A DNA stretch of 64,000 nt from Squalus acanthias (taxonomy: Eukaryota), in contig CM059432.1 of NCBI GenBank assembly GCA_030390025.1, positions 65,412,001 to 65,476,000 of the forward strand, in the 5' to 3' direction. This document shows positions 1 to 63,592 of the stretch, one piece after another. Each line of letters opens with the position of its first letter. Within the stretch, counting starts at the first letter, position 1. Under the pieces are notes generated by a model that saw only the letters and a program-made list of their open reading frames with translations, searched no databases and had not been told where the DNA came from. The translations under genes and the position numbers were made by a program.

Positions 1-848
1 ATCTTGTCTATGAGACCCACCTCCTGCTCCTTCGACCCTATTCCCACCAAACTGCTGACCACCCAACTTCCTTTTCTGGCTCCCATGTTAACTGATATTG
101 TTAACAGTTCTCTCTCCTCAGGTACTGTCCCCCTCTCCCTCAAATCTGCCGTTATCACCCCTCTCCTCAAAAAACCAAACCTTGATCCCTCCGTCCTTGC
201 AAATTACCGCCCCATCTCCAACCTCCCTTTCCTCTCCAAAGTCCTTGAACGTGTTGTTGTCTCCCAAATCCGTGCCCATCTTTCCCGCAATTCCATGTTT
301 GAATCCTTCCAATCAGGTTTCCACCCTTGCCACAGTACCGAAATGGCTCTCATCAAAGTCACAAATGACATCCTTTGTGAATGTGACAAAGGTAAACTAT
401 CCCGCCTCAAAATTCTCATCCTTGTTTTCAAATCCCTCCATGGCCTCGCCCCTTCCAATCTCTGTAATTTCCTTCAGCCCCACAACCACCCGCCCCCCCA
501 CCGCCGCCCCCCCACCCCCACCCCCCGAGATATCTGCGCTCCTCTAATTCTGCCCTCTTGAGGATCCCTGATTAAAATCGCTCAACCATTGGTGACTGTG
601 CCTACTGTTGCCTAGGCCTTAAGCTCTGGAATTCCCTGCCTAAACCTCTCCGCCTCGCTACCTCTCTTTCCTCCTTTAAGACGCTCCTTAAAGCCTACAT
701 CTTTGACCAAGCTTTTGGTCACCTGCCCTAATTTATCCTTATGTGGATCGGTGTCAAATTTTTTGTCTTAAAATACTCCTGTGCAGTGCCTTGGGACATT
801 TTACTACATTAAAGGTGCTATATAAATAGAAGTTGTTGTTGTTGTTGT
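1..848 (+). mobile_element. L2-clade LINE 3' fragment (RT region, internally deleted) with (GTT)n tail
   Basis: ORF 4-561 has RT motifs (ITPLLKKPNLDP, NYRPISNLPFLSKVLE, FQSGF). It jumps to the C-terminal region near 400 and ends in GCTATATAAATAGAAG(TTG)n. Confidence 0.9.
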
Positions 849-2739: not shown

Positions 2740-3661
2740 TGGAATAAAAACAGAAAATGCTGGAAATACTCAGCGGGTCAGGCAGCATCTGTGGAGAGAG
2801 AAACAGAGTTAACGTTTCAGGTCGATGACCTTTCGTCAGATTCGGAAAAAGTTAGAGATATAACAGATTTTAGCAAGTGCAAAGACAGGGAAAGGAAGGG
2901 AGGGGAGGAAAGAACAAAAGGGAAGGTCTGTGATAGGATGGAAGGCTGGAGTGATTAAATGACAAAAGGGATGATTGTACAAGGCAAAAGGAGATGGTAA
3001 TGGGACAAGTAAAGAAACAAAAGATGGGTCTAGAAGAGGTGTAAATGGGAATTAGCAAAATCATCAACAGCGGCCGTCTGAAAAAATAGGGGCAGAGGTT
3101 ATAATCTGAAATTGTTGAAGTTGATGTTGAGTCCAGAAGGCTGTAAAGTGCCTAATCGAAAGATGAGGTGCTGTTCCTCAAGCTTACATTGACCTTCATT
3201 GGAACAGTGTAAGAGGCCAAGGACTGAGAGGTCTGAGTGGGAGTGGAGTGGAGAATTAAAGTGACAGGCGACCAGAAGCTCGGGGTCATGTTTGTGGACT
3301 GAACGGAGGTGTTGCACAAAGCGGTCGCCCAATCTGCATTTGGTCTTGTCAATGTAGAAGAGACCGCATCGTGAGCAGCGAATACAGTATACTAAATTGA
3401 AAGAAGTACAAGTAAATCGCTGTTTCACCTGGAAGGAGTGTTTGGGGCCCTGGACGGTGGGAAGGGAGGAGGTAAAAGGGCAGGTGTTGCATCTTCTGCG
3501 CTTCCACGAGAAGGTGCCATGGGAAGGGGAGGGGGTGTTGAGGGTGATTGAGGAGTGGACCAGGGTGTTACGGAAGGAACGGTCCCTTCAGAATGCTGAA
3601 AGGGGAGGGGAGGGGAAGATGTGATTGGTGGTGGGATCACGCTGGAGGTGGCGGAAATGGT
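2740..3661 (-). mobile_element. Penelope-like element 3' part: GIY-YIG endonuclease plus pLTR with hammerhead motif
   Basis: ORF 3099-3428 (NLVYCIRCSRCGLFYIDKTKCRLGDRFVQH...HFN...LEEQHLIFRLGTLQPSGLN) is a typical PLE GIY-YIG domain. The downstream region matches 56885-58044. Confidence 0.9.
2807..2843 (-). ncRNA. Minimal type I hammerhead ribozyme motif (PLE-type)
   Basis: Minus strand reads CUGACGA-A-AGGUC(AUC)GACCU-GAA-ACGU-U-AACU: conserved core, helix II and palindromic ACGU helix III. Helix I is partly mutated in this copy. Confidence 0.75.
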
Positions 3662-7613: not shown

Positions 7614-9730
7614 TAGAATCATTGAATCATAGAAACTTACAGCACAGAAGGAGGCCATTTGGGCCGTCGTGCCTGTGCTGGCTTGTTGAAAGAGCAGTCG
7701 TGCTTAATCCCACATCCCCGTTTCTTGTCCATAATCCTGTAAGTTCTTCATCCTTAAGTACCTGTCAACTCCTATTTTAAATTATTTATAGAATCAGATT
7801 CCACCAACCTTTCGGGTAATGCTTTCCAGATCCGACAACTCTCTGAGTGAAAAAAAATTCTCCTCATCTCCCCTCGAGATCTTTTGCCAATCATTTTAAT
7901 CTACGACATCTGGTTATTGACCCATTCGCCAGAGGAAACAGTTTTTCTCTGTCTACTCTATCAAACCTCTCATCATCTGGAAAACCTATATTAGGTCACC
8001 TCTTAACCCTCTCTGTTCCAAGGAGAACAGTCCTTAACCTCTCATAACTAAAGCCTCTCATCCCTGGTAACATCCTGGTAAAGCTCCTCTGTACCCTTTC
8101 TAAGGCCTTTTGATCTTTCCTGAAGTGTGATGCCCAGAATTGTCCACAATATTCCAGCTGAGGCCTAACCAGTAATTAAAAAAAAAATGTTTATGGGATG
8201 TGAGCGTCGCTGGCAAGGCCAGCATTTATTGCCCATCCCTAATTGCCCTTGAGAAGGTGGTGATGAGCCGCCTTCTTGAACCGTTGCAGTCCGTGTGGTG
8301 AAGGTACTCCCACAGTGCTGTTAGGTAGGGAGTTCCAGGATTTTGACCCAGCGACGATGAAGGATCGGCGATATACTTCTAAGTCAGGATGGTGTGTGAC
8401 TTGGAGGGGAACTTGGAGGTGGTGGTATTCCCATGCGCCTGCTGCCCTTGTCCTTCTAGGTGGAAGAGGTCGCGGGTTTGGGAGGTGCTGCCGAAGAAGC
8501 CTTTATAAAGTTCTAGTATATATATATTCCTCTATATATAAACCCAAGTAACCCATATGATTTTTTTTTAAACCACCTTATCAACTTGCCCTGCTACCTT
8601 TAAGGATTTGTGTATGTGGACACCAAGGTCTCTCTGCTCATCTACACTTTTCAAAATCGTGCCATTTATATTATACTGTCTTTCCACATTAGTCCTTTCA
8701 AAGTGCATCACTTCACACTTCTCCGCATTGAACTCCATCTGCCATGCTTCTGCCCATTTCACCATCCTGCCTATGTCATCCTGAAGTCTATAACAATCCT
8801 CATCACTATCCACTACTAAGTTGCTAAATTTTGTATTATCTGCAAACTTTATAATGCTGCTTCCTGCACCCGAGTAAAGGTCATTTATAAAAATTGAAAA
8901 GAGTAATGGACCCAAAACTGACCCTTGGGGACCACCACTGCAAACCACCTACCAGTCTGAAAAACATCCATCCATCACCACCTTATCTTCCTGTCACTGA
9001 GCCAATTTTGTATCCATCCTGCCACTTTCCCCTTAATTCCATGGACTTCCACCTTCTTAATAAGCCTCCTGTGTGGCACTTTGTCGAAAGCCTTCCGAAA
9101 GTCCATAAATACAACATCTACTGCACTACCTTAATCAACCTTCTCTGTTACCTCATCAAAGAATTCAATCAAGTTTTTCAGACACGATTTGCCTTTAACA
9201 AATCCATGCTGGCTCTCCTTGATTAACCCATGCCTTTCCAAATGAAAGTTTATTTTGTCTCTGATAATGGTTTCCAATAACTTCCCCAGCACTGATGTTA
9301 GGCTGACTGGCCTGTAGTTTCCTGGTTTATCCCTCTCCCCTTTCTTGAATAGTGGTATAACATTAGCAACCCTCTAGTCCTCCAGCACTGCTCCTGTATC
9401 CAAAGAGGATTGAAAGATTGTGACCAACGCCTCTGCTATTTCTACCTTTGCTTCTTCCAGCAACCTAGGATGCATTCAATCTGGAACAGGTGACTTACCA
9501 ACGTTCAGTAATTCTAATCTTTTTACTGCATCTTCTCTATCTATTACTATGCTGGCCATAACTTCCCTCTCCTCTTTTAGTGTAACGTTCACATCATCCG
9601 CTTCCTTTGTGAAAATTGATGCAAAGTACTCATTTAATACTTTTGCCATGTCCTCTGCCTCTACATGAGGATTTCCCTTTGGGTCCATAATAGGCCCAAC
9701 TTTTTCCCTAGCTAACCACTTTCACTTTAT
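7614..9730 (-). mobile_element. CR1 LINE (RT to 3' end), interrupted at ~8188-8502
   Basis: ORF 8568-8948 PQGSVLGPLLFSIFINDL...KFADNTK...WQMEFNAEKC; (ATTCTATG)-type tail at 7614-7633. Confidence 0.9.
8188..8502 (-). mobile_element. 3' fragment of the tRNA-headed LINE family (see 60604-63592) inserted in CR1
   Basis: Reverse complement begins GGCTTCTTCGGCAGCACCTCCCAAACCCGCGACCTCT, matching 63554-63590, and continues to the family 3' end. Confidence 0.85.
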
Positions 9731-15328: not shown

Positions 15329-18204
15329 TTTAGTTTAAACTAATTTGGCAGGGAATGGGCACCAGAATGAAGCATTAGAGAGGAGATACAAGGTGCACAG
15401 AGGACTTGGAGAGACAAGCAGCATTAGAATAAAGAGTAGCTCAGAAATAGGAGGGGTCAGACAGGAGGCGAAAGTGAGGCAGACTAAAATAGGCTTGGAG
15501 TGCATGTGCATAAATGCATGGAGTGTGGTAAATAAGATTGGTGAGCTGGAGGTACAAGTCGCCACATAGGATTATGATATAGTGGAAATAATGAAGATCT
15601 GGCTCAAACAAGGGGAGGAATGGGCACTTAATATTACTGGATAGAATGTATTCAGGAAAGATAGGGAAGGATAAAAAGAATGGGGTGGCAGTATTGATCA
15701 AAGATACTATTACAGCACTAGAAAGGGATGATCTACTTGAGGTTTCAAGGACAGAATCTATTTGGTTAGAATTAAGGAATAATAGAGGAACTATTATGCT
15801 GCTGGGTGTATAGAAAAGGCCACCAAATAGTGGAAAGGAAATAGAGGAGCAAACTTGCAGGCAAATTGATAAGTAGTGATAATAGGGGACTTCAATTATC
15901 CTAATATAGACTAGGGAAATAACAGTGTAAAAGGCAAAGAGGGAGAGGAATTCCTGAAATGTGTACAAGAGAACTTTCTTGATATAGTAAGTTTCCAGCT
16001 CAATGAGGAAGGACGCAGTGCTGGGTCTAGTTCTGGGGAATAAAGTGGGGTAAGTGGAGCATGCTTCAAAGGAAAAAAAATTGGTAAACAGTGATCACAA
16101 TATCATTAGCTTTAGAATACTTATGGAAAAGGACAAGGAAAAATCAAATGTGAAAATACTCGACTGGAGAAGGGCTAATTTCAGGGAGTTGAAAAGGGAT
16201 CTGGCCCAGGTGGATTGGAATCAAAGACTGTTAGGTAAAACAGTAAATGAGCAATAGAAGGCCTTCAAAGAGGAGATAGTTCGGCTGCAGACTAGACACA
16301 TTCCCACGAGGGGGAAAGGGCAGCCAAAGCTCGAGCTCCCTGGATGACTAAAGATATATGGTTGGAATTTTGCCGGCGCTCAGGGGGCGGGTTTGGAGGC
16401 GGAACATCCGGCAAAATTGCAAAGATTGACAGTGGGTCGGAAATCTGCTGTCATCCCTGCCTCCAAACAATCTTCCCAGGTGTCAGGTCCCCGATTTGCG
16501 CGTGGACCCGACACCTAGCAGCGGGAAGAGGATTATAGGCACTTAACTGCTTGTTAACAAGTTGTCTTCACTAAAGCTGGCAATGTCACAGTAAGGGAGG
16601 AGGTAGTACAGAAATTGGACAAGATAAAAATAGATGAAGAGGAAGTACTTAAAATGTTGGCAGTGCTCAAAGTAGAAAAGTCATCCAGCCTAGGTTGCTG
16701 AGGGAAGTAAGGATGGAAATTGCGGAGGCTCTGGCCACAATCTTCCAATATTCGTTAGCTATGGGAGTGGTGCCAGAGGACTGGAGGATTGCAAATGTTA
16801 CACCGCTGTTCTAAAAAAAGGGAGAGCGATAAACCTGCCGACTACAGGCCAGTCAGCTTGTCAACAGTGGGGGTGAAACTTTAAGAGAGAATAATCCGGG
16901 ATAAAATTAATTGACATTTGGAAAAATATGGATTAGTAAATGAAAGTCAGTATGGATTTGTTAAAGGCAATTTGTGTTTGATTAACTTGATTGAGTTCTT
17001 TGATGAAGTAACAGAGAGGGTTGATGAGGGTATTGTGGTTGATGTTGTGTATATGGACTTTCAAAAGGCACGTGAACAAGTACCACATAATAGATTTGTT
17101 AGCAATATTGAAGCCCATGGGATTACAGAGGTAGTGGCTACATGGATACAGAATTGCCTATGGGACAGAAAGCGGAGAGTAGTGGTGAACAGTTGTTTTT
17201 CAGAATGGAGGGAAGTATACAGTAGTGTCCTCCAGGGGTCGGTGTTGGGACTACTGCTCTTCTTGATATATATTAATGACATGGACTTGGGTATATAGGG
17301 CATCATTTCAAAGTTTTCAGATGACACAAAATACGGAAATGCAGTCAACAGTGAGGAGGATAATAACAGACTTCAGGAGGGCATAGACAGACTGGTGAAA
17401 TGGGCAAACACATGGCAGATGAAATTTAACTCAGAGAAGTGGGAAGTGATACATTTTGGTAGGAAGACAGGCAATATAGACTAAATGGGTACAACTTTAA
17501 AGGGAGTGCAGGAACAGACAACCTGAGGGTATATGTACACAAATCTTTGAAGGTGGCAGGACAAGTTGAGAAGGCTGATCAAAAAACATACGGAATCCTT
17601 GGTTTATTAATAGAGGCATAGAGGACAAAAGCAAGGAGGTTATGCTAAACCTTTATTAAACACTGGTTAGGCTTTAGCTGGAATATTGTGTTTAATTTTA
17701 GGCACCGCACTTTAGGAAGGATGTTAAGACCTTGGAAAGGGTACAGAAGAGATTTACTAGAATGGTACCAGGGATGAGGGAGTTCAGTTATGTGGAGAGA
17801 CTGGAGAAGCTGGGGTTGTTCTCCTTAGAGCAGAGAAGGTTAAGAGAAGATTTGATAGAGGTGTTCAAAATCATGAACAGTTTTGATAAAGTAAACTGTT
17901 TCCAGTGGTCAGTAACCAGAGGACACAGATTCAGGTGATTGGCAAAAGAACCAGAAGTGACATGAGGATTTTTTTTAACGCAGCAAGTTGATGTGATCTA
18001 GAATGCACTGTCTGATCAGGTGGTGGAAGCAGATTCAATAATAACTTTCAAAAGGGAATTGGATGAATACTTGAAGGGAAAAAAATTACAGTACTCTGGG
18101 GAAAGAGCAGGGGAGTGGGACTATTTGGATAGCTCTACCAAAGAACTGGCACAGGAATGATGGGCCGAATGGCCTCCTTTTGTGTTGTATCATTCTATGA
18201 TTCT
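15329..18204 (+). mobile_element. CR1 LINE ORF2 (EN+RT), decayed, with 3' tail
   Basis: CMCINAWSVVNKIGEL, GDFN, SDHN, QGSVLG and FSDD motifs; CATTCTATGATTCT tail; TSD AACCTG at 15323-15328 and 18205-18210. Confidence 0.92.
16359..16558. mobile_element. Left-end fragment of a family A-like MITE inside CR1
   Basis: TGGTTGGAATTTTGCC...GGCGGGTTTGGAGGCGG...GCACTTAACTGCTTGTTAAC matches the family A left arm; flanking CR1 sequence is deleted. Confidence 0.65.
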
Positions 18205-32589: not shown

Positions 32590-34542
32590 ATCCTTGTGGT
32601 GTTTCACAAAATGCCACATAATAGGCTTGCCAGCAAAGTTGAAGCCCATGGAATAAAAGGGACAGTAGCAGTGTGGATACAGAATTGGCTAAGTGACAGG
32701 AAACAGAGAGTAGTGGTGAACAGTTGTTTTTTGGACTGGTGGAAGGTATATAGTGGTGTTCCCCAGGGTTCGGTTCTAGTACCACTGCTTTTCTTGATAT
32801 ATATTAATGACTTGGACTTGGGTGTACAGGGCACAATTTCAAAATTTGCAGATGACACAAAACTTGGAAGTATAGTGCACAGTGAGGAGGAGAATGATAG
32901 ACTTCAAGAAGGCATAGACAGGCTGGTGAAATGTGTGGACATGTGGCAGATGAAATTTAATGCAAAAAAATGTGTGAAGTGATACATTTGGGTAGAAAGA
33001 ATGAGGAGAGGACACATAAACTAAATGGTACAATCCTGAAGGGGGTGCACAAACAGAGACCTGGGGGGTATGTGTGCACAAATCATTGAAGGTGGCAGGG
33101 CAGGTTGAGAAAGTAATTAAAAAGGCTTACGGGATCCTGGGCTTCATGAATAGAGGAATAGGGCTGGATTTTGAATGACCCATGGAGTCGGGTTTGGAGG
33201 CGTGTGGGGGGTTAAATTTGCGGGGTCGGGGTTTCCGACCCCATCCCGACTCCATCCCGCCTCCACGCAATTTTGACAAAATCAGTCGCGGGGTTCCCAA
33301 CTCTCTCCCGCCTCTTGGAGGCGGGAGAGGCCATTAAAGCCCTTAACAAGCCCTAAATTGGGTCTGTAATGCTATTTTGAAACGTTGTAGCTAGTTTAAC
33401 CCTTTTCTGACGTGAAGCACGCCTGGTGTGAAACACTCCAGTGAAACCTGGCAGGAGCACAAATGAATAGCTGACTATCGGCTGCAAGTCCACTGTTACA
33501 ACGGAGATGTGATGAAGGTAGTAGTAGTATTAGGTGTGAAAGTCGCCTCTGATACTGTTACATTCAATGTCATGGCATTTGGTGTAAGAGGACTTAGATG
33601 CAAAAAATTCTCTCTCTCTCTCTGTCTGTCTCTCTCTCTCTGTCTCTGTCTCTCTCTCTCTTGCATCCAGGTCCACTCACATCAGAAGCAATGCAGACAG
33701 GTCCTCTCTCACCAGTAGCCAGACAATCTCTGAGAGCAGGCAGTCAGCAATGATGACATCATCAGAGGCGGGTTTCAGACTGAAACCACTAATTAGTTCA
33801 TGGGTTCCCACATGCTGCAACTCAATTGCCCAATTAAGTGAAAATTGCATCAGGCATCCACATTAATCTGGAGTCGGGGGGGAAACACGAAATGCGGATT
33901 ACACGACCCCAACCTGACCCCAAGACAAAATCCAGCCCATAGAGTACAAAAGTGTGGAAATTATGATGAACCTGTATAAAACACTTGTTCGGCCCCAACT
34001 GGAGTACTGTATCCAATTCTGGGCACCACACTTTAGGAAGGATGTGAAGGCCTTAGAAAAGATTTATGAGAATGATTCCAGGAATGAGTGACTTCAGTTA
34101 CATTGATAGACTGGAGAAGCTGGGGTTGTTCTCCTTGGAGCAGGAAAGATTGAGAGGAGATCTGATAGAGGTGTTCAAAATCATGAGGTGTCTGGACAGA
34201 GTAGATAGAGAGAAACTGTTCCCATTGACAGAAGGGTTGAGAACCGGAGGACACAGATTTAAGGTGATTGGCAAAAGAACCAAAGGCGACGTAAGAAAAA
34301 ACCTTTTTACGCAGCGAGTGGTTAAGATCTGGAATGCACTGCCTGAAAGGGTGGTAGAGGCAGATTCAATCACGGCTTTGAAAAGGGAGTTGGATAATTA
34401 TCTGAAGGAAATACATTTGCAGGGCTACAAGGAAAGGGCGGGGGAGTGGGACTAGCTGAAGTGCTCTTGCAGAGAGCCGGCACGGGCTCAACAGTCCGAA
34501 TGGCCTTCTTCCTTGCTGTAACCATTCTATGATTCTATGATT
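32590..34542 (+). mobile_element. CR1 LINE RT to 3' end, split by a MITE
   Basis: VPQGSVLVPLLFLIYINDL, KFADDTK, RGDLIEVFKIM; tail CATTCTATGATTCTATGATT. Confidence 0.93.
33161..33938. mobile_element. Harbinger-type MITE inside CR1
   Basis: Perfect 13-bp TIR GGGCTGGATTTTG; TSD ATA; removal restores CR1 codons RGIEYK. Contains (CT)n at 33609-33660. Confidence 0.92.
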
Positions 34543-60540: not shown

Positions 60541-60603
60541 GAAAATTGGAGTGCAGAAAAACACCCAAAATCAATCAGAAAATATATAACTCAAACAGAG
60601 AAC

Positions 60604-60690
60604 GGTAGCATAATGGCTTTGTCACTGGACCAGTAATCCAGAGGCCTGGACTAATGATCTGGAAGACGTGAGTTCAAATCCTACCACGGC
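60604..60690 (+). promoter_or_regulatory. tRNA-like head with Pol III internal promoter
   Basis: A box TAGCATAATGG 60606-60616; anticodon-like stem CTGGA-7nt-TCCAG 60625-60641; B box GTTCAAATCC 60672-60681. Confidence 0.8.
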
Positions 60691-63592
60691 AGCTGGGGAA
60701 TTTAAATTCAGTTAATTAAATAAATCTGGAATAAAAAACTAGTATCAGTAATGGTAACCATGAGACTATCGGATTGTTGTAAAAACCCATCTGGTTCACT
60801 AATGTCCTTTAGAAAAGGAAATCTGCCATCCTTACCTGGTCTGGTCTATATGTGACTCCAGACCTACAGCAATGTGGTTGACTCTTAACTGCCCTCAAAA
60901 ATGGCCTAGCAAGCCACTCAGTTGTATACAACTGCTACGAAAAACAATAAAAATAAAACCGGATAGACCACCCGGCATCGACCTCGGCACCGGCTATGGA
61001 CATGGCAGCGGCACAGCCAGCTCAGTCACCCCTGCAAAGTCCTCCTCACCAACATCTGGAGACTTGTGCCAAAATTGGGAAAGCTGTCCCACAGACTAGT
61101 CAAGCAACAGCCTGACATAGTCATGCTCAAAGAATCATACCTTACAGCCAATGTCAAAAATTCCTCCATCACCATCCCTGGGTATGACCCACCAGGGGTG
61201 GCAGCACAGTGGTATACAGTCGGGAAGGAGTGGCCCTGGGAGTCCTTAACATTGACTCTGGACCCCATGAAGTCTCATGGCTTCAGGTCAAGCATGGGCA
61301 AGGAAACCTCCTGCTGATTACTACCTACCGCCCTCGCTCAGCTGATAAATCAGTACTCCTCCATGTTGGACACCACTTGGAAGAAGCACTGAGAGTAGCA
61401 AGGGCTCAGAATATACTCTGGGTGGGAGACTTCAATGTCCATCATCAAGAGTGGCTCGGTAGCACCACTACTGATCGAGCTGGCCAAGTCCTGAAGGACA
61501 TAGCTGCCAGTCTGGGCCTGTAACAATGGTGAGAGAACCAACACGAGGGAAAAACCTACTTGACCTCGTCCTCACCAATCTACCTGTCGCAGATGCATCT
61601 GTCCATGACAACATTGGTAGCAGTGACCACCGCACAGTCATTGTGGAGATGAAGTCCTGTCTTCACACTGAGGAAACCCTCCATCATGTTGTGTGACACT
61701 ACCACTGTGCTAAATGGGACAGATTCAATACAGATCTAGCAGCTCAAAACTGGGCATCCATGAGGCGCTGTGGGCCATCAGCAGCAGCAGAATTATATTC
61801 CACCACAATCTGTAACCTCATGGCCCGGCATATCCCTCACTCTACCATTACCATCAAGCCAGGGGACCAACCCTGGTTCAATAAGGAGTACAGAAGAGCA
61901 TGCCAGGAGCAGCACCAGGCATACCTAAAAATGCAGTGCCAACCTGGGGAAGCTGCAACATAGGACTACAGGCATGCTAAAAAGTGGAGGCAGCATGCTA
62001 TAGACAAAGCTAAGGTATCCCACAATCAACAGATCAGATCAAAGCTCTGCAGTCCTGCCACATCCAGTCATGAATGGTGGTGGACCATTAAGCAACTAAC
62101 GGGAGGAGGAGGCTCCATGAATATCCCCATCCTCAATGATGGTGGAGCCCAGCACGTGAGTGCTAAAGACAAAGCTGAAGCATTTGCAACCATCTTCAGC
62201 CAGAAGTGCCGAGTGGATGATCCATATCGGCCTCCTCCGGAGGTCCCCACCACCACAGAAGCCAGTCTTCAGCCAATTTGATTCACTCCACGTGATATCA
62301 AGAAATGGCTGAGCGCACTGGATACAGCAAAAGCTGTGGCCCCCTGAAAACATCCCGGCTGTCGTGCTGAAGACTTGTGCTCCAGAACTAGCCACGCCTC
62401 TAGCCAAGCTGTTCCAGTACAGCTACAATGCTACGACAATGTGGAAAACTGCCCAGGTATGTCCTGTCCACAAAAATCAGGACAAATCCAATCCGACCAA
62501 TTACCGTCCCATCCGTCTGCTCTCAATCATCAGCAAAGTGATGGAAGGTGTCAACCTCAGTGCTGTCAGGCAGCACTTACTCACCAATAACGTGCTCACT
62601 GATGCCCAGTTTGGGTTCTGCCAGGACCACTCGGCTCCAGACCTCATTACAGCCTTGGTCCAAACATGGACAAAAGAGCTGAATTCCAGAGGTGAGGTGA
62701 GAGTGACTGCCCTTGATATCAAGTCAGCATTTGACTGAGTGTGGCATCAAGGAGCTCTACTAAAACTGAAGTCAATGAGAATCGGGGGGAAAGCTCTCCA
62801 CTGGCTGGAGTCATACCTAGCACAAAGGAAGATGGTTGTGGTTGTTGGAGGGCAATCATCTCAGCCCCAGGACATCACTGCAGTAGTTTCTAAGGGCAGT
62901 GTCCTAGGCCCAACCATCTTCAGCTGCTTCATCAGTGACCTTCCCTCCATCATAGGGTCAGAAGTGGGGATGTTCGCTGATGACTGCACAGTGTTCAGTT
63001 CCATTCGCAACTCCTCAGATAATGAAGCAGTTCATGCCTGCATGCAGCAAGACCTGGACGACATTCAGGCTTGGGCTGATAACTCACAGGTAACATTCGC
63101 ACCACACAAGTGCCAGGCAATGACTATCTCCAACAAGCGAGCATCTAACCACTGCCCCTTGATATTCAATGGCATTAACATCGCCGAATCCCCCACCATC
63201 AATATCCTGGGTGTCACCATTGACCAGAAACTTAACTGGACCAGCCACATAATTACTGTGGTAACAAGAGCAGGTCAGAGGCTAGTTATTCTGTGGCGAG
63301 TGTCTCACCTCCTGACTCCCCAAAGCCTTTCCACCATCTACAAGGCACAAGTCAGAAGTGTGATGGAATACTCTCCACTTGCCTGGATGAGTGCAGCTCC
63401 AACAATACCCAAGAAGCTCGACACCATCCAAGACAAAGCAGCCCACTTGATTGGCACCCCATCCACCACCTTAAACATTCACTCCCTCCACCACCGGCGT
63501 GTCTATATCTGCAGTGTGTACCATCTACAAGATGCACTGCAGCAACTCGCCAAGGCTTCTTCAGCAGCACTTCCCAAACCCGCGACCTCTAC
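60604..63592 (+). mobile_element. CR1-group-like LINE, single EN-RT ORF (decayed), tRNA-derived 5' end, 3' truncated
   Basis: EN: LLTNIWRLVPKL, PDIVMLKESYL, GDFN, SDH. RT: NYRPIRLLS, QFGF, DIKSAFD, GSVLGP, FADD. The ORF starts ~430 bp after the head. Confidence 0.92.

What the first reader, a model, noticed from the sequence alone, without database searches (positions are those of the whole stretch)
60604..63592. Candidate RNA polymerase III-transcribed LINE: tRNA head, no ORF1, no AUG, no TTTT
Seen: (a) the element begins with a tRNA-like fold with A and B boxes; (b) after a ~350-nt leader the AP endonuclease starts at ~61033, leaving no room for ORF1; (c) in that frame there is no ATG between the stop at 60964 and the first EN motif; (d) by manual scan the ~3 kb sense strand has no run of four T and only about nine TTT, while AAAA runs are common and the CR1 copies in this window contain several TTTT; (e) the separate 3' fragment has no sense TTT across 8190-8502. 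Known: Pol III terminates at T4 or longer, its transcripts lack an m7G cap, and LINEs are normally Pol II units while tRNA heads mark SINEs. Inference: a formerly autonomous SINE-LINE hybrid transcribed by Pol III and translated non-canonically, with the leader as a possible IRES-like element. I cannot check whether this has already been described.
Basis: partly seen in the sequence, partly recalled or inferred. Interest (0 to 1): 0.85.

Follow-up and report, generated by a model that had tools for sequence, protein, structure and literature searches.

The report
Protein-coding LINE with a tRNA head
This is a broken copy of an abundant 3.3-kb jumping gene that encodes its own copying enzyme yet starts with the tRNA-type promoter normally found only on short non-coding repeats, and several sequence signs suggest, without proving, that it is made by RNA polymerase III and translated without a normal start codon.

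Summary
Real and family-wide. The window copy (60598-63590, 3'-truncated, dead) belongs to a ~3.3-kb single-ORF endonuclease/reverse-transcriptase family. Head, ORF and tail are colinear in 33 of 40 fetched loci (chosen for head plus ORF), the 5' edge is sharp in 48 heads, and 9 of 33 copies split an older sequence as one unit. The head is tRNA-Thr(AGT)-like with intact A and B boxes. The family-majority sense strand has no T4 and only 7 TTT. Two other LINE families of this genome have 9-10 T4 in their ORFs, one at nearly equal T content. T3 depletion survives codon shuffling (P=0.005); T4 alone does not (P=0.12). Correction: an in-frame ATG exists (60901), but in most copies two stops follow it; 3 of 68 copies are open. 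Stop-bearing lineages still show purifying selection, so they probably made protein without a usable AUG. About half of head-first hits are ~420-nt SINE-like internal deletions. Pol III transcription is inferred (about 0.6), not shown. The scan flagged this family four times before in this genome; I found no paper describing it, but Repbase and Dfam could not be checked.

The parts
60598..60690 (+). tRNA-Thr(AGT)-like head, the 5' end of the element (family start GGGAAC, here GAGAAC); D arm, anticodon arm, a duplicated anticodon arm in the variable region, T arm
   Evidence: homology among 48 heads begins at this position
60606..60616 (+). A box of the type-2 Pol III promoter
   Evidence: only changes at two degenerate positions (13, 16) reach 8% of LINE-type copies
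60672..60682 (+). B box (GTTCAAATCC), 65 nt after the A box start in the family
   Evidence: no variant in 3 or more of ~59 LINE-type copies inside the 10-nt core
60691..60927 (+). Non-coding leader or body shared with the short SINE-like derivatives; holds five of the eight leader ATGs in the family majority sequence
60901..60909 (+). In-frame ATG-GCC-TAG micro-ORF, overlapping a hairpin with a 7-nt anticodon-like loop (60902-60916); ATG open into the ORF in 3 of 68 copies
60934..60939 (+). GCT-ACG: candidate near-cognate start (ACG) or anticodon-codon-like pairing site, in an A-rich linker where 5' truncations and SINE-type junctions cluster
60928..63590 (+). Single ORF (basic N-terminal extension, AP endonuclease from 61039, reverse transcriptase with FADD near 62973-62984); broken here by stops and frameshifts, cut off at family position 3022
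8178..8503 (-). Separate 5'-truncated copy showing the family 3' end that the main copy lacks: end of ORF, tail stem-loop, terminal T10 run

Best explanation
An autonomous non-LTR retrotransposon of the short single-ORF (Zenon-like, CR1-group; clade names recalled) type whose own promoter is a tRNA-derived A/B-box head. SHOWN: head, leader, ORF and tail move as one 3.3-kb unit; the ORF was under purifying selection in the source elements; the sense strand avoids T-runs; short head-plus-tail elements arose repeatedly by internal deletion. INFERRED: TFIIIC/Pol III starts at the first G and reads all 3.3 kb because internal terminators were purged, stopping at a T-run at or behind the tail. The uncapped RNA is translated at low level without a usable in-frame AUG, most likely by internal entry or re-initiation after the in-frame micro-ORF, starting at or just after the TAA (ACG is the best single candidate). 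The protein recognises the 3' stem-loop and copies both the full element and the short derivatives by target-primed reverse transcription. The head probably came from a SINE that fused to an ordinary AUG-started element; the rare open-ATG copies may preserve that state.
For: Linkage in 33 of 40 loci, 5' edge, 9 of 33 nested insertions. ORF selection: lineage-shared changes 42 synonymous to 35 non-synonymous versus 522 to 1680 for singletons, p=2e-8. Among changes confined to TAA-bearing copies 62:77 with 1 stop, p=3e-7. T-runs: T3 5 versus 11.3 expected (P=0.005) and 4-of-5-T windows 1 versus 9.5 (P=0.004) under synonymous shuffling. A Tx1-like ORF2 with T=0.208 has 38 T3 and 9 T4; a CR1-like ORF has 24 and 10. 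Private mutations create T4 as readily as they hit other sites (16 of 37 versus 40%), so genomic mutation bias is not the cause. Phe is 1.9% versus 4.4-4.6% in the controls and 2.6-3.3% in the nearest relatives. All 5 lineage-shared changes in the modelled stems keep pairing, versus 25 of 90 rare ones. No excess G at position -1 (8 of 48), where capped RNA often leaves one (recalled). A basic motif shared with P0010, P0005 and P0008 places the start within about the first 11 codons.
Against: No transcript evidence. Absence of T4 alone is not significant once codon usage is kept (P=0.12) or dinucleotides are kept (P=0.18). The CR1-like control is also slightly T3-poor (P=0.046). The test for purged T4 among lineage-shared variants has no power (0 of 37). 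The stem test left out the outer pairs 213-215/237-239, where one change in 12 of 61 copies breaks a pair. The T-run before the A-tail reaches T4 or more in 9 of 87 copies, the same as the genomic background of 67 of 628. 3.3 kb is far beyond the 100-700 bp given for SINEs, a limit ascribed to weak Pol III processivity (PMC10886601, passage). Eight leader ATGs and two in-frame stops leave translation unexplained in detail.
Confidence: 0.6

Rival explanations
1. Pol II-transcribed LINE that captured a SINE as its 5' UTR. The A/B boxes act as a weak Pol II promoter or are kept for the short derivatives, and T-poverty reflects avoidance of U-rich processing signals or inherited composition.
For: LINEs are described as Pol II units (PMC10886601, PMC5786205 passages). 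T4 absence alone is within chance. The family ends in an AATAAA-like A-tail. Leader haplotypes look recombined among subfamilies, so box conservation could be fed by the short elements.
Against: Two other LINE families of the same genome keep T-runs. The depletion is strand-specific (15 T4 on the antisense strand). Five AATAAA/ATTAAA sites are tolerated in the sense strand. The boxes are intact in LINE-type copies. Even a capped RNA would meet seven upstream ATGs and two in-frame stops.
Confidence: 0.25
2. Only the minority lineage with the open ATG (CAG and TAC in place of the stops) makes protein; the abundant stop-bearing full-length copies and the short elements are mobilised in trans.
For: 3 of 68 copies are open from an ATG in strong context. 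Relatives usually have a predicted Met 14-38 residues before the endonuclease motif (gene-caller starts, which may be GTG or TTG). The tail stem-loop (z=-3.1) would allow trans recognition.
Against: Changes shared only by TAA-bearing copies are still enriched for synonymous ones (62:77:1 stop). The youngest group (18 copies, 2.4% divergence) has 22:17:0 and an intact majority ORF. Trans-mobilised masters should decay. Caveat: only 4 open-codon copies served for the exclusion, and recombination could import selected ORF segments.
Confidence: 0.12
3. The head is an independent SINE that happens to lie next to a 5'-truncated LINE at this locus.
For: SINE-like elements with the same head are common: 15 of 29 head-first loci. 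Clear TSDs are rare (4 of 41).
Against: The same seamless head-ORF junction occurs in the 40 best hits and in 10 of 29 loci picked by the head alone. Flanks rejoin across the whole unit in 9 of 33 copies. The short elements have 12 different junctions, as expected of deletions from the long form.
Confidence: 0.01

Closest known systems
tRNA-derived SINEs (SINE2) with LINE-type tails, including shark HE1/HER1, SacSINE1 and CmiSINE (PMC3747384 table passage; PMC5499810 parts 1-2 of 6)
   Same: tRNA-derived head with A and B boxes, non-coding body, 3' stem-loop and A-tail; the ~420-nt derivatives look like ordinary SINEs
   Different: Here the head and body also sit on the full 3.3-kb coding element, so SINE and LINE share both ends. 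PMC5786205 states that SINEs cannot encode a protein. Identity with the named shark SINEs could not be tested by alignment.
Short single-ORF CR1-group (Zenon-like) LINEs and their internally deleted derivatives, SIDEs such as Persaeus (PMC6740152 passages)
   Same: One EN-RT ORF of ~950-990 aa running almost to the 3' end; RT tree groups the family with such proteins, apart from this genome's CR1-like family; derivatives made by internal deletion
   Different: Persaeus is described as lacking tRNA homology and a Pol III promoter. This family has both, plus T-run depletion and stops after its in-frame ATG.
Bipartite RTE/Vingi-derived SINEs, Okada-Hamada model (PMC5786205, PMC7245038 passages)
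   Same: SINE body and tail match the 5' and 3' parts of a LINE
   Different: In that model the RNA head is added after the deletion; here the head is already on the autonomous element, so one deletion yields a SINE.
T+ SINEs (B2, Can; PMC9599045 passages)
   Same: AATAAA near the end and a T-run of variable length (1-10) before a short A-tail
   Different: The T-run lengths match the genomic background, so T+ behaviour is not shown.
AUG-independent ORF2 translation of L1 (PMC11485995 passage) and dicistrovirus IGR IRES (PMC10516663, PMC12221177 passages; raised for LINEs as a speculation in PMC3894237)
   Same: Main ORF opens right after an upstream stop with no AUG; a hairpin with a 7-nt loop can pair with an in-frame codon at the ORF start
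   Different: No ORF1, only a 2-codon or 8-codon micro-ORF. Only 3 bp are invariant, no nested pseudoknots were identified, and there is no Rfam match.
TRIMp3: Cassandra, Helenus, Ajax (PMC10886601 passages)
   Same: Pol III-type promoter inside a retrotransposon other than a SINE
   Different: Those are LTR-type, non-coding, non-autonomous and at most 1.3 kb.

Membership tests
APE-type autonomous LINE | AP endonuclease and reverse transcriptase in one ORF | tested here: met
   PF03372, PF14529 and PF00078 over cut-off in one natural open frame, L207; 972-codon majority ORF
APE-type autonomous LINE | Variable 5' truncation, fixed 3' end with A-tail | tested here: met
   Starts spread from 1 to 2532 among 126 alignments; 94 of 103 tails have A5+
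APE-type autonomous LINE | ORF selected in source elements (autonomy) | tested here: met
APE-type autonomous LINE | Target-site duplications | tested here: inconclusive
   6 nt or longer in 4 of 41 (null mean 0.44); most copies have none
APE-type autonomous LINE | Pol II transcription | not testable with these tools
   No raw RNA reads offered
Two-ORF CR1/L2 LINE | ORF1 upstream of ORF2 | tested here: not met
   330-nt leader, longest ATG-started leader ORF 75 codons; no shared upstream sequence
CR1-Zenon group | RT phylogeny with named Zenon references | tested here: inconclusive
   Groups (91/97, unresolved inside) with short single-ORF proteins, apart from the genome's CR1-like family; no named references held, label recalled
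2A-bearing single-ORF LINEs | DxExNPGP before the endonuclease | tested here: not met
   Absent from the family; present in P0016, P0018, P0019, P0069 and others
SINE2 (tRNA SINE) | tRNA-derived head with A and B boxes | tested here: met
SINE2 (tRNA SINE) | Short and non-coding | tested here: not met
   Long form is 3.3 kb and coding; met by the 320-560 nt derivatives
SINE2 (tRNA SINE) | No internal Pol III terminator | tested here: met
   0 T4 and 0 five-of-six-T windows in the majority sequence; 17 of 34 single copies have none
SINE2 (tRNA SINE) | Pol III transcription | not testable with these tools
   needs ChIP or 5'-end chemistry
Conserved-domain SINE superfamilies (Meta, V, CORE, Deu, UCON3) | Conserved body domain after the head | tested here: inconclusive
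   No match by motif search or by eye to the bivalve Meta, V and CORE alignments seen in the PMC4824008 supplement; Deu and UCON3 not compared
Type 6 (IGR) IRES | 3'-terminal anticodon-codon mimic (PKI) in frame before a non-AUG codon | tested here: inconclusive
   AGC loop can pair with in-frame GCT (2.5% of shuffles, post hoc); the fourth pair is broken in 16 of 61 copies
Type 6 (IGR) IRES | Nested PKII/PKIII with conserved loop motifs | tested here: not met
   No Rfam match at E<=10; leader fold z about -0.2; subtypes 6c-6f may lack Rfam models
HDV-ribozyme-headed LINEs (R2, RTE, Ingi) | [quoted passage not shown] | tested here: not met
   No Rfam ribozyme hit in the leader; the 5' end is tRNA-like

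The most novel reading that the evidence does not exclude
A naturally occurring autonomous, protein-coding retrotransposon transcribed end to end by RNA polymerase III from a tRNA promoter, whose uncapped 3.3-kb RNA is translated without an AUG, possibly through a tRNA-mimicking anticodon-codon pseudoknot at the ORF start, and which gives birth to SINEs by single deletions.
Probability: 0.5. Interest if true: 0.9.

Novelty: new variant of a known kind. Interest (0 to 1): 0.72.

Why it matters
The papers I read divide retrotransposons into Pol II, coding LINEs and Pol III, short, non-coding SINEs (PMC10886601, PMC5786205). A selected, abundant 3.3-kb element with a tRNA promoter crosses that line. 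It offers a one-step route to SINE birth (deletion from a headed LINE, seen here with 12 different junctions). If Pol III is confirmed, it is a natural test case for two open questions: how long a Pol III transcript can be, and how an uncapped cellular RNA is translated. Young, nearly intact copies exist, so both are directly testable.

Tried and rejected
Expression: no RNA holder listed. The four runs laid were contigs with a guessed RNA label, so they say nothing on transcription, start site or strand. No listed contig bridged leader and ORF in those runs, though the table was cut. Relatives' DNA: a metagenome scan gave one unrelated bacterial contig; three viral-collection scans gave nothing; the prokaryote-genome scan gave three distant LINE-like contigs. 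So whether the invertebrate-type relatives carry tRNA heads is open. A protein search of the own genome for sister families gave no answer. Two further control LINE families were listed but not analysed. IGR-IRES idea: raised, then weakened (3 invariant bp, no Rfam hit, no excess folding); kept as a lead only. Terminal T-run as a built-in Pol III terminator: not above background and unrelated to copy age. Purging of T4 among lineage-shared variants: no power. The ATG at family position 355 (42 of 75 copies) and the ATG at 274 are in the +1 frame; I saw no slippery site by eye and one subfamily lacks the first, so both were rejected as starts. Meta-domain origin of the body: only an 11-nt resemblance by eye. 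The window's 3' fragment as the missing end of the main copy: rejected, different divergence. Paper searches for five sequence motifs and for a Pol III-driven coding LINE returned 0 papers.
Full report
WHAT IS THERE. The window lies in a 3.7-Gb genome. The repeats and the best named vertebrate hit (an exonised fragment in a Heptranchias protein) point to a shark-like host; that is inference. The stretch 60598-63590 is a dead copy of a repeat family: stops, frameshifts at 61187, 61527, 62345 and 63501, and loss of the last ~290 nt. A second, younger 3' fragment at 8189-8503(-) shows the tail. Seven family fragments lie in 99.6 kb of loci chosen for another family, which scales roughly to a few hundred thousand fragments in the genome.

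LINKAGE. A 697-nt head-plus-endonuclease query gave 11,827 candidates; all 40 scored match across the head-ORF border at 87-91%. I fetched 40 loci (31, 6, 3, so biased towards long copies); 33 carry head, ORF and tail colinearly over about 3.1-3.7 kb. A sample picked by the 97-nt head alone (29 loci besides the window) gave 10 that run on into the ORF, 15 short head-plus-tail elements of 320-564 nt, 1 longer deletion and 3 unclassified. Among 48 distinct heads, homology starts at GGG and the bases upstream are random. Of 52 upstream flanks only three, duplicates of one locus, share sequence. TSDs of 6 nt or more occur in only 4 of 41 copies (null 0.44), but in 9 of 33 the two flanks rejoin into another repeat. 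Head, ORF and tail therefore insert as one unit, and there is no ORF1. Four laid runs from four coded organisms hold contigs over all 30 bins of the element and leader-to-tail joints, so long and short forms are not confined to this assembly; head-ORF linkage in those organisms was not shown.

THE HEAD. Rfam aligns a young head to tRNA with D, anticodon and T arms and a 22-nt insert (E=0.036, under the gathering score). The insert is a duplicate of the anticodon arm (sequence inspection). ARAGORN heads in 60 loci, 6 as Thr(AGT), but not the window's. In 61 LINE-type copies the shared variants fall at degenerate A-box positions and none in the B-box core. All 5 lineage-shared changes in the modelled stems keep pairing, through G-U, against 25 of 90 rare changes. 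I left out three outer pairs of one helix, where a change in 12 of 61 copies breaks a pair, and about half of transitions would be compatible by chance, so this is suggestive only.

THE ORF. The majority of 34 aligned rows has one open frame of 972 codons whose first Met is codon 286; a natural copy gives endonuclease and RT families over cut-off. Changes shared by at least 8% of copies are 42 synonymous to 35 non-synonymous, against 522 to 1680 for singletons, so the source elements needed the protein. Nearest proteins found are 908-995-aa single ORFs from unnamed metagenome contigs and a Branchiostoma protein, 41-48% identical over the RT end. In an RT tree of 46 rows (one short row dropped) the family sits in an unresolved group of short single-ORF proteins, apart from this genome's CR1-like family. 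I call that group Zenon-like from recall; CR1-Zenon-like LINEs are mentioned for the whale shark (bioRxiv 443036, passage; its supplements were closed).

T-RUNS. The majority sequence has 7 TTT and no T4, against 46 AAA, 51 CCC and 38 GGG runs; the antisense strand has 15 T4. With protein and codon usage kept, T3 is 5 versus 11.3 (P=0.005), four-of-five-T windows 1 versus 9.5 (P=0.004), T4 0 versus 1.9 (P=0.12). A young two-ORF Tx1-like family of the same genome (label recalled) has almost the same T content (0.208 versus 0.190) but 38 T3 and 9 T4 in ORF2; the CR1-like family has 24 and 10. At those rates zero T4 has Poisson probability 0.001 and 6e-7. After insertion, copies gain T4 at the ordinary rate. 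The depletion thus belongs to the source lineage, the sense strand and this family. Pol III termination at T-runs is the simplest known cause; it is not the only conceivable one.

TRANSLATION. A basic motif shared with three relatives lies in the first 11-25 codons of the open frame, so the start is near its 5' end. An in-frame ATG in GAAATGG context sits at 60901. In most of 68 copies TAG follows at codon 3 and TAA at codon 9. About 16 replace TAG by CAG or GAG, a few replace TAA, and 3 (L040, L087, L110) have both replaced and read through in frame; two more scored open only through private frameshifts. The three large subfamilies all carry TAA, have intact majority ORFs with no T4, and show selection within the group (22:17, 6:7 and 7:6, no stops; p=1e-5, 0.09, 0.02). 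Changes confined to TAA-bearing copies give 62:77 with one stop. The successful lineages therefore appear to have made protein without a usable in-frame AUG. My odds, all inferred: re-initiation or internal entry with start at or just after the TAA, ACG being the best codon, about 0.55 (L1 ORF2 is described as AUG-independent, PMC11485995 passage); an IGR-like anticodon-codon mimic about 0.15; stop read-through about 0.1; protein only from the open minority about 0.15-0.2. For the mimic, a hairpin with loop CTAGCAA can pair AGC with the in-frame GCT just before the ACG (2.5% of shuffles, post hoc), but the fourth pair is broken in 16 of 61 copies and no other IRES feature was found.

SHORT DERIVATIVES. 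The 15 short elements leave the long form at positions 305-352 and rejoin at 3167-3270 through 12 different junctions, one of them shared by three or four copies. Five 5' truncations also fall at 324-351, with none between 352 and 551 (sample biased by the queries). This fits repeated deletion from the long form at the A-rich linker, with some products amplifying as SINEs. They are slightly more diverged in the leader (0.938 versus 0.952-0.956 identity), so an older SINE origin of the head itself remains likely but unproven.

THE 3' END. The tail is a stem-loop (z=-3.1) followed by GAA, a T-run of 0-10 and a short A-tail, resembling T+ SINEs (PMC9599045, passages). The T-run lengths match the genomic background, so this does not count as evidence.

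LITERATURE. Ten searches found no description of a tRNA-headed coding LINE. The library lacks most subscription papers, and Repbase and Dfam were not available, so a database entry may exist. Seen: PMC5499810 parts 1-2 of 6; PMC4824008 part 2 of 6, searches of its supplement and part 3 of 4 of file 2, file 1 unavailable; PMC3894237 parts 1-2 of 3; passages only of PMC11481361, PMC10516663, PMC12221177, PMC5786205, PMC6740152, PMC3747384, PMC11485995, PMC9599045, PMC10572872, PMC10886601, PMC7245038 and bioRxiv 443036. Four earlier scan notes report the same family elsewhere in this genome; they are not independent support, and look-ups by sequence and for relatives in other genomes were empty.

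VERDICT. The architecture is established: an autonomous single-ORF LINE with a SINE-type tRNA head, purged T-runs, a blocked in-frame ATG and SINE-like deletion products. Pol III transcription is the best explanation at about 0.6. I file it as a new variant of a known kind; it would approach a new category if Pol III transcription and AUG-free translation are shown.

Noticed in passing
L198, L199, L201-L203, L213, L214: A young, intact two-ORF LINE family (ORF1 ~730 aa, ORF2 1306 aa, both ATG-started; Tx1-like by recall). Several hits lie in pairs about 7.2 kb apart, suggesting tandem or target-specific insertion.
   Followed up: partly
L195, L196, L212: Three loci share 97-98% identical upstream flanks and a family copy cut at position 2683 whose open frame runs on into a distantly related endonuclease-like sequence (26-29% identity): a duplicated chimeric locus.
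   Followed up: no
L170-L190: Tandem tRNA gene arrays with a period of about 1.78 kb on several contigs; ARAGORN types among all fetched loci include tRNA-Lys(TTT) and Cys(GCA).
   Followed up: no
family leader, positions 57-303 (window 60654-60903): Six of the eight leader ATGs lie in the frame of the main ORF, including a 34-codon upstream ORF; by arithmetic about 2% by chance.
   Followed up: no
family position 309 (window 60907): The T of the first in-frame stop is C or G in 16 of 61 copies scattered over the copy tree: recombination among leaders, or recurrent loss of the stop.
   Followed up: partly
L192, L193: LINE-like ORFs (913 and 1085 aa) on short contigs of bacterial genome bins, probably animal-host contamination.
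   Followed up: partly
P0016, P0018, P0019, P0065, P0069, P0073, P0082, P0120, P0129: Relatives with a 2A-like NPGP motif, the recoding solution described for ORF1-less LINEs; this family lacks it.
   Followed up: partly
window 8571-9694(-), 16813-17466(+), 32590-32973(+), 34-336(+): Fragments of other LINE families, 29-42% identical in RT, with ordinary T-run content.
   Followed up: partly
L107, L096, L125: Full-length copies inserted inside another copy of the same family, inside the Tx1-like element, and inside another short repeat.
   Followed up: partly
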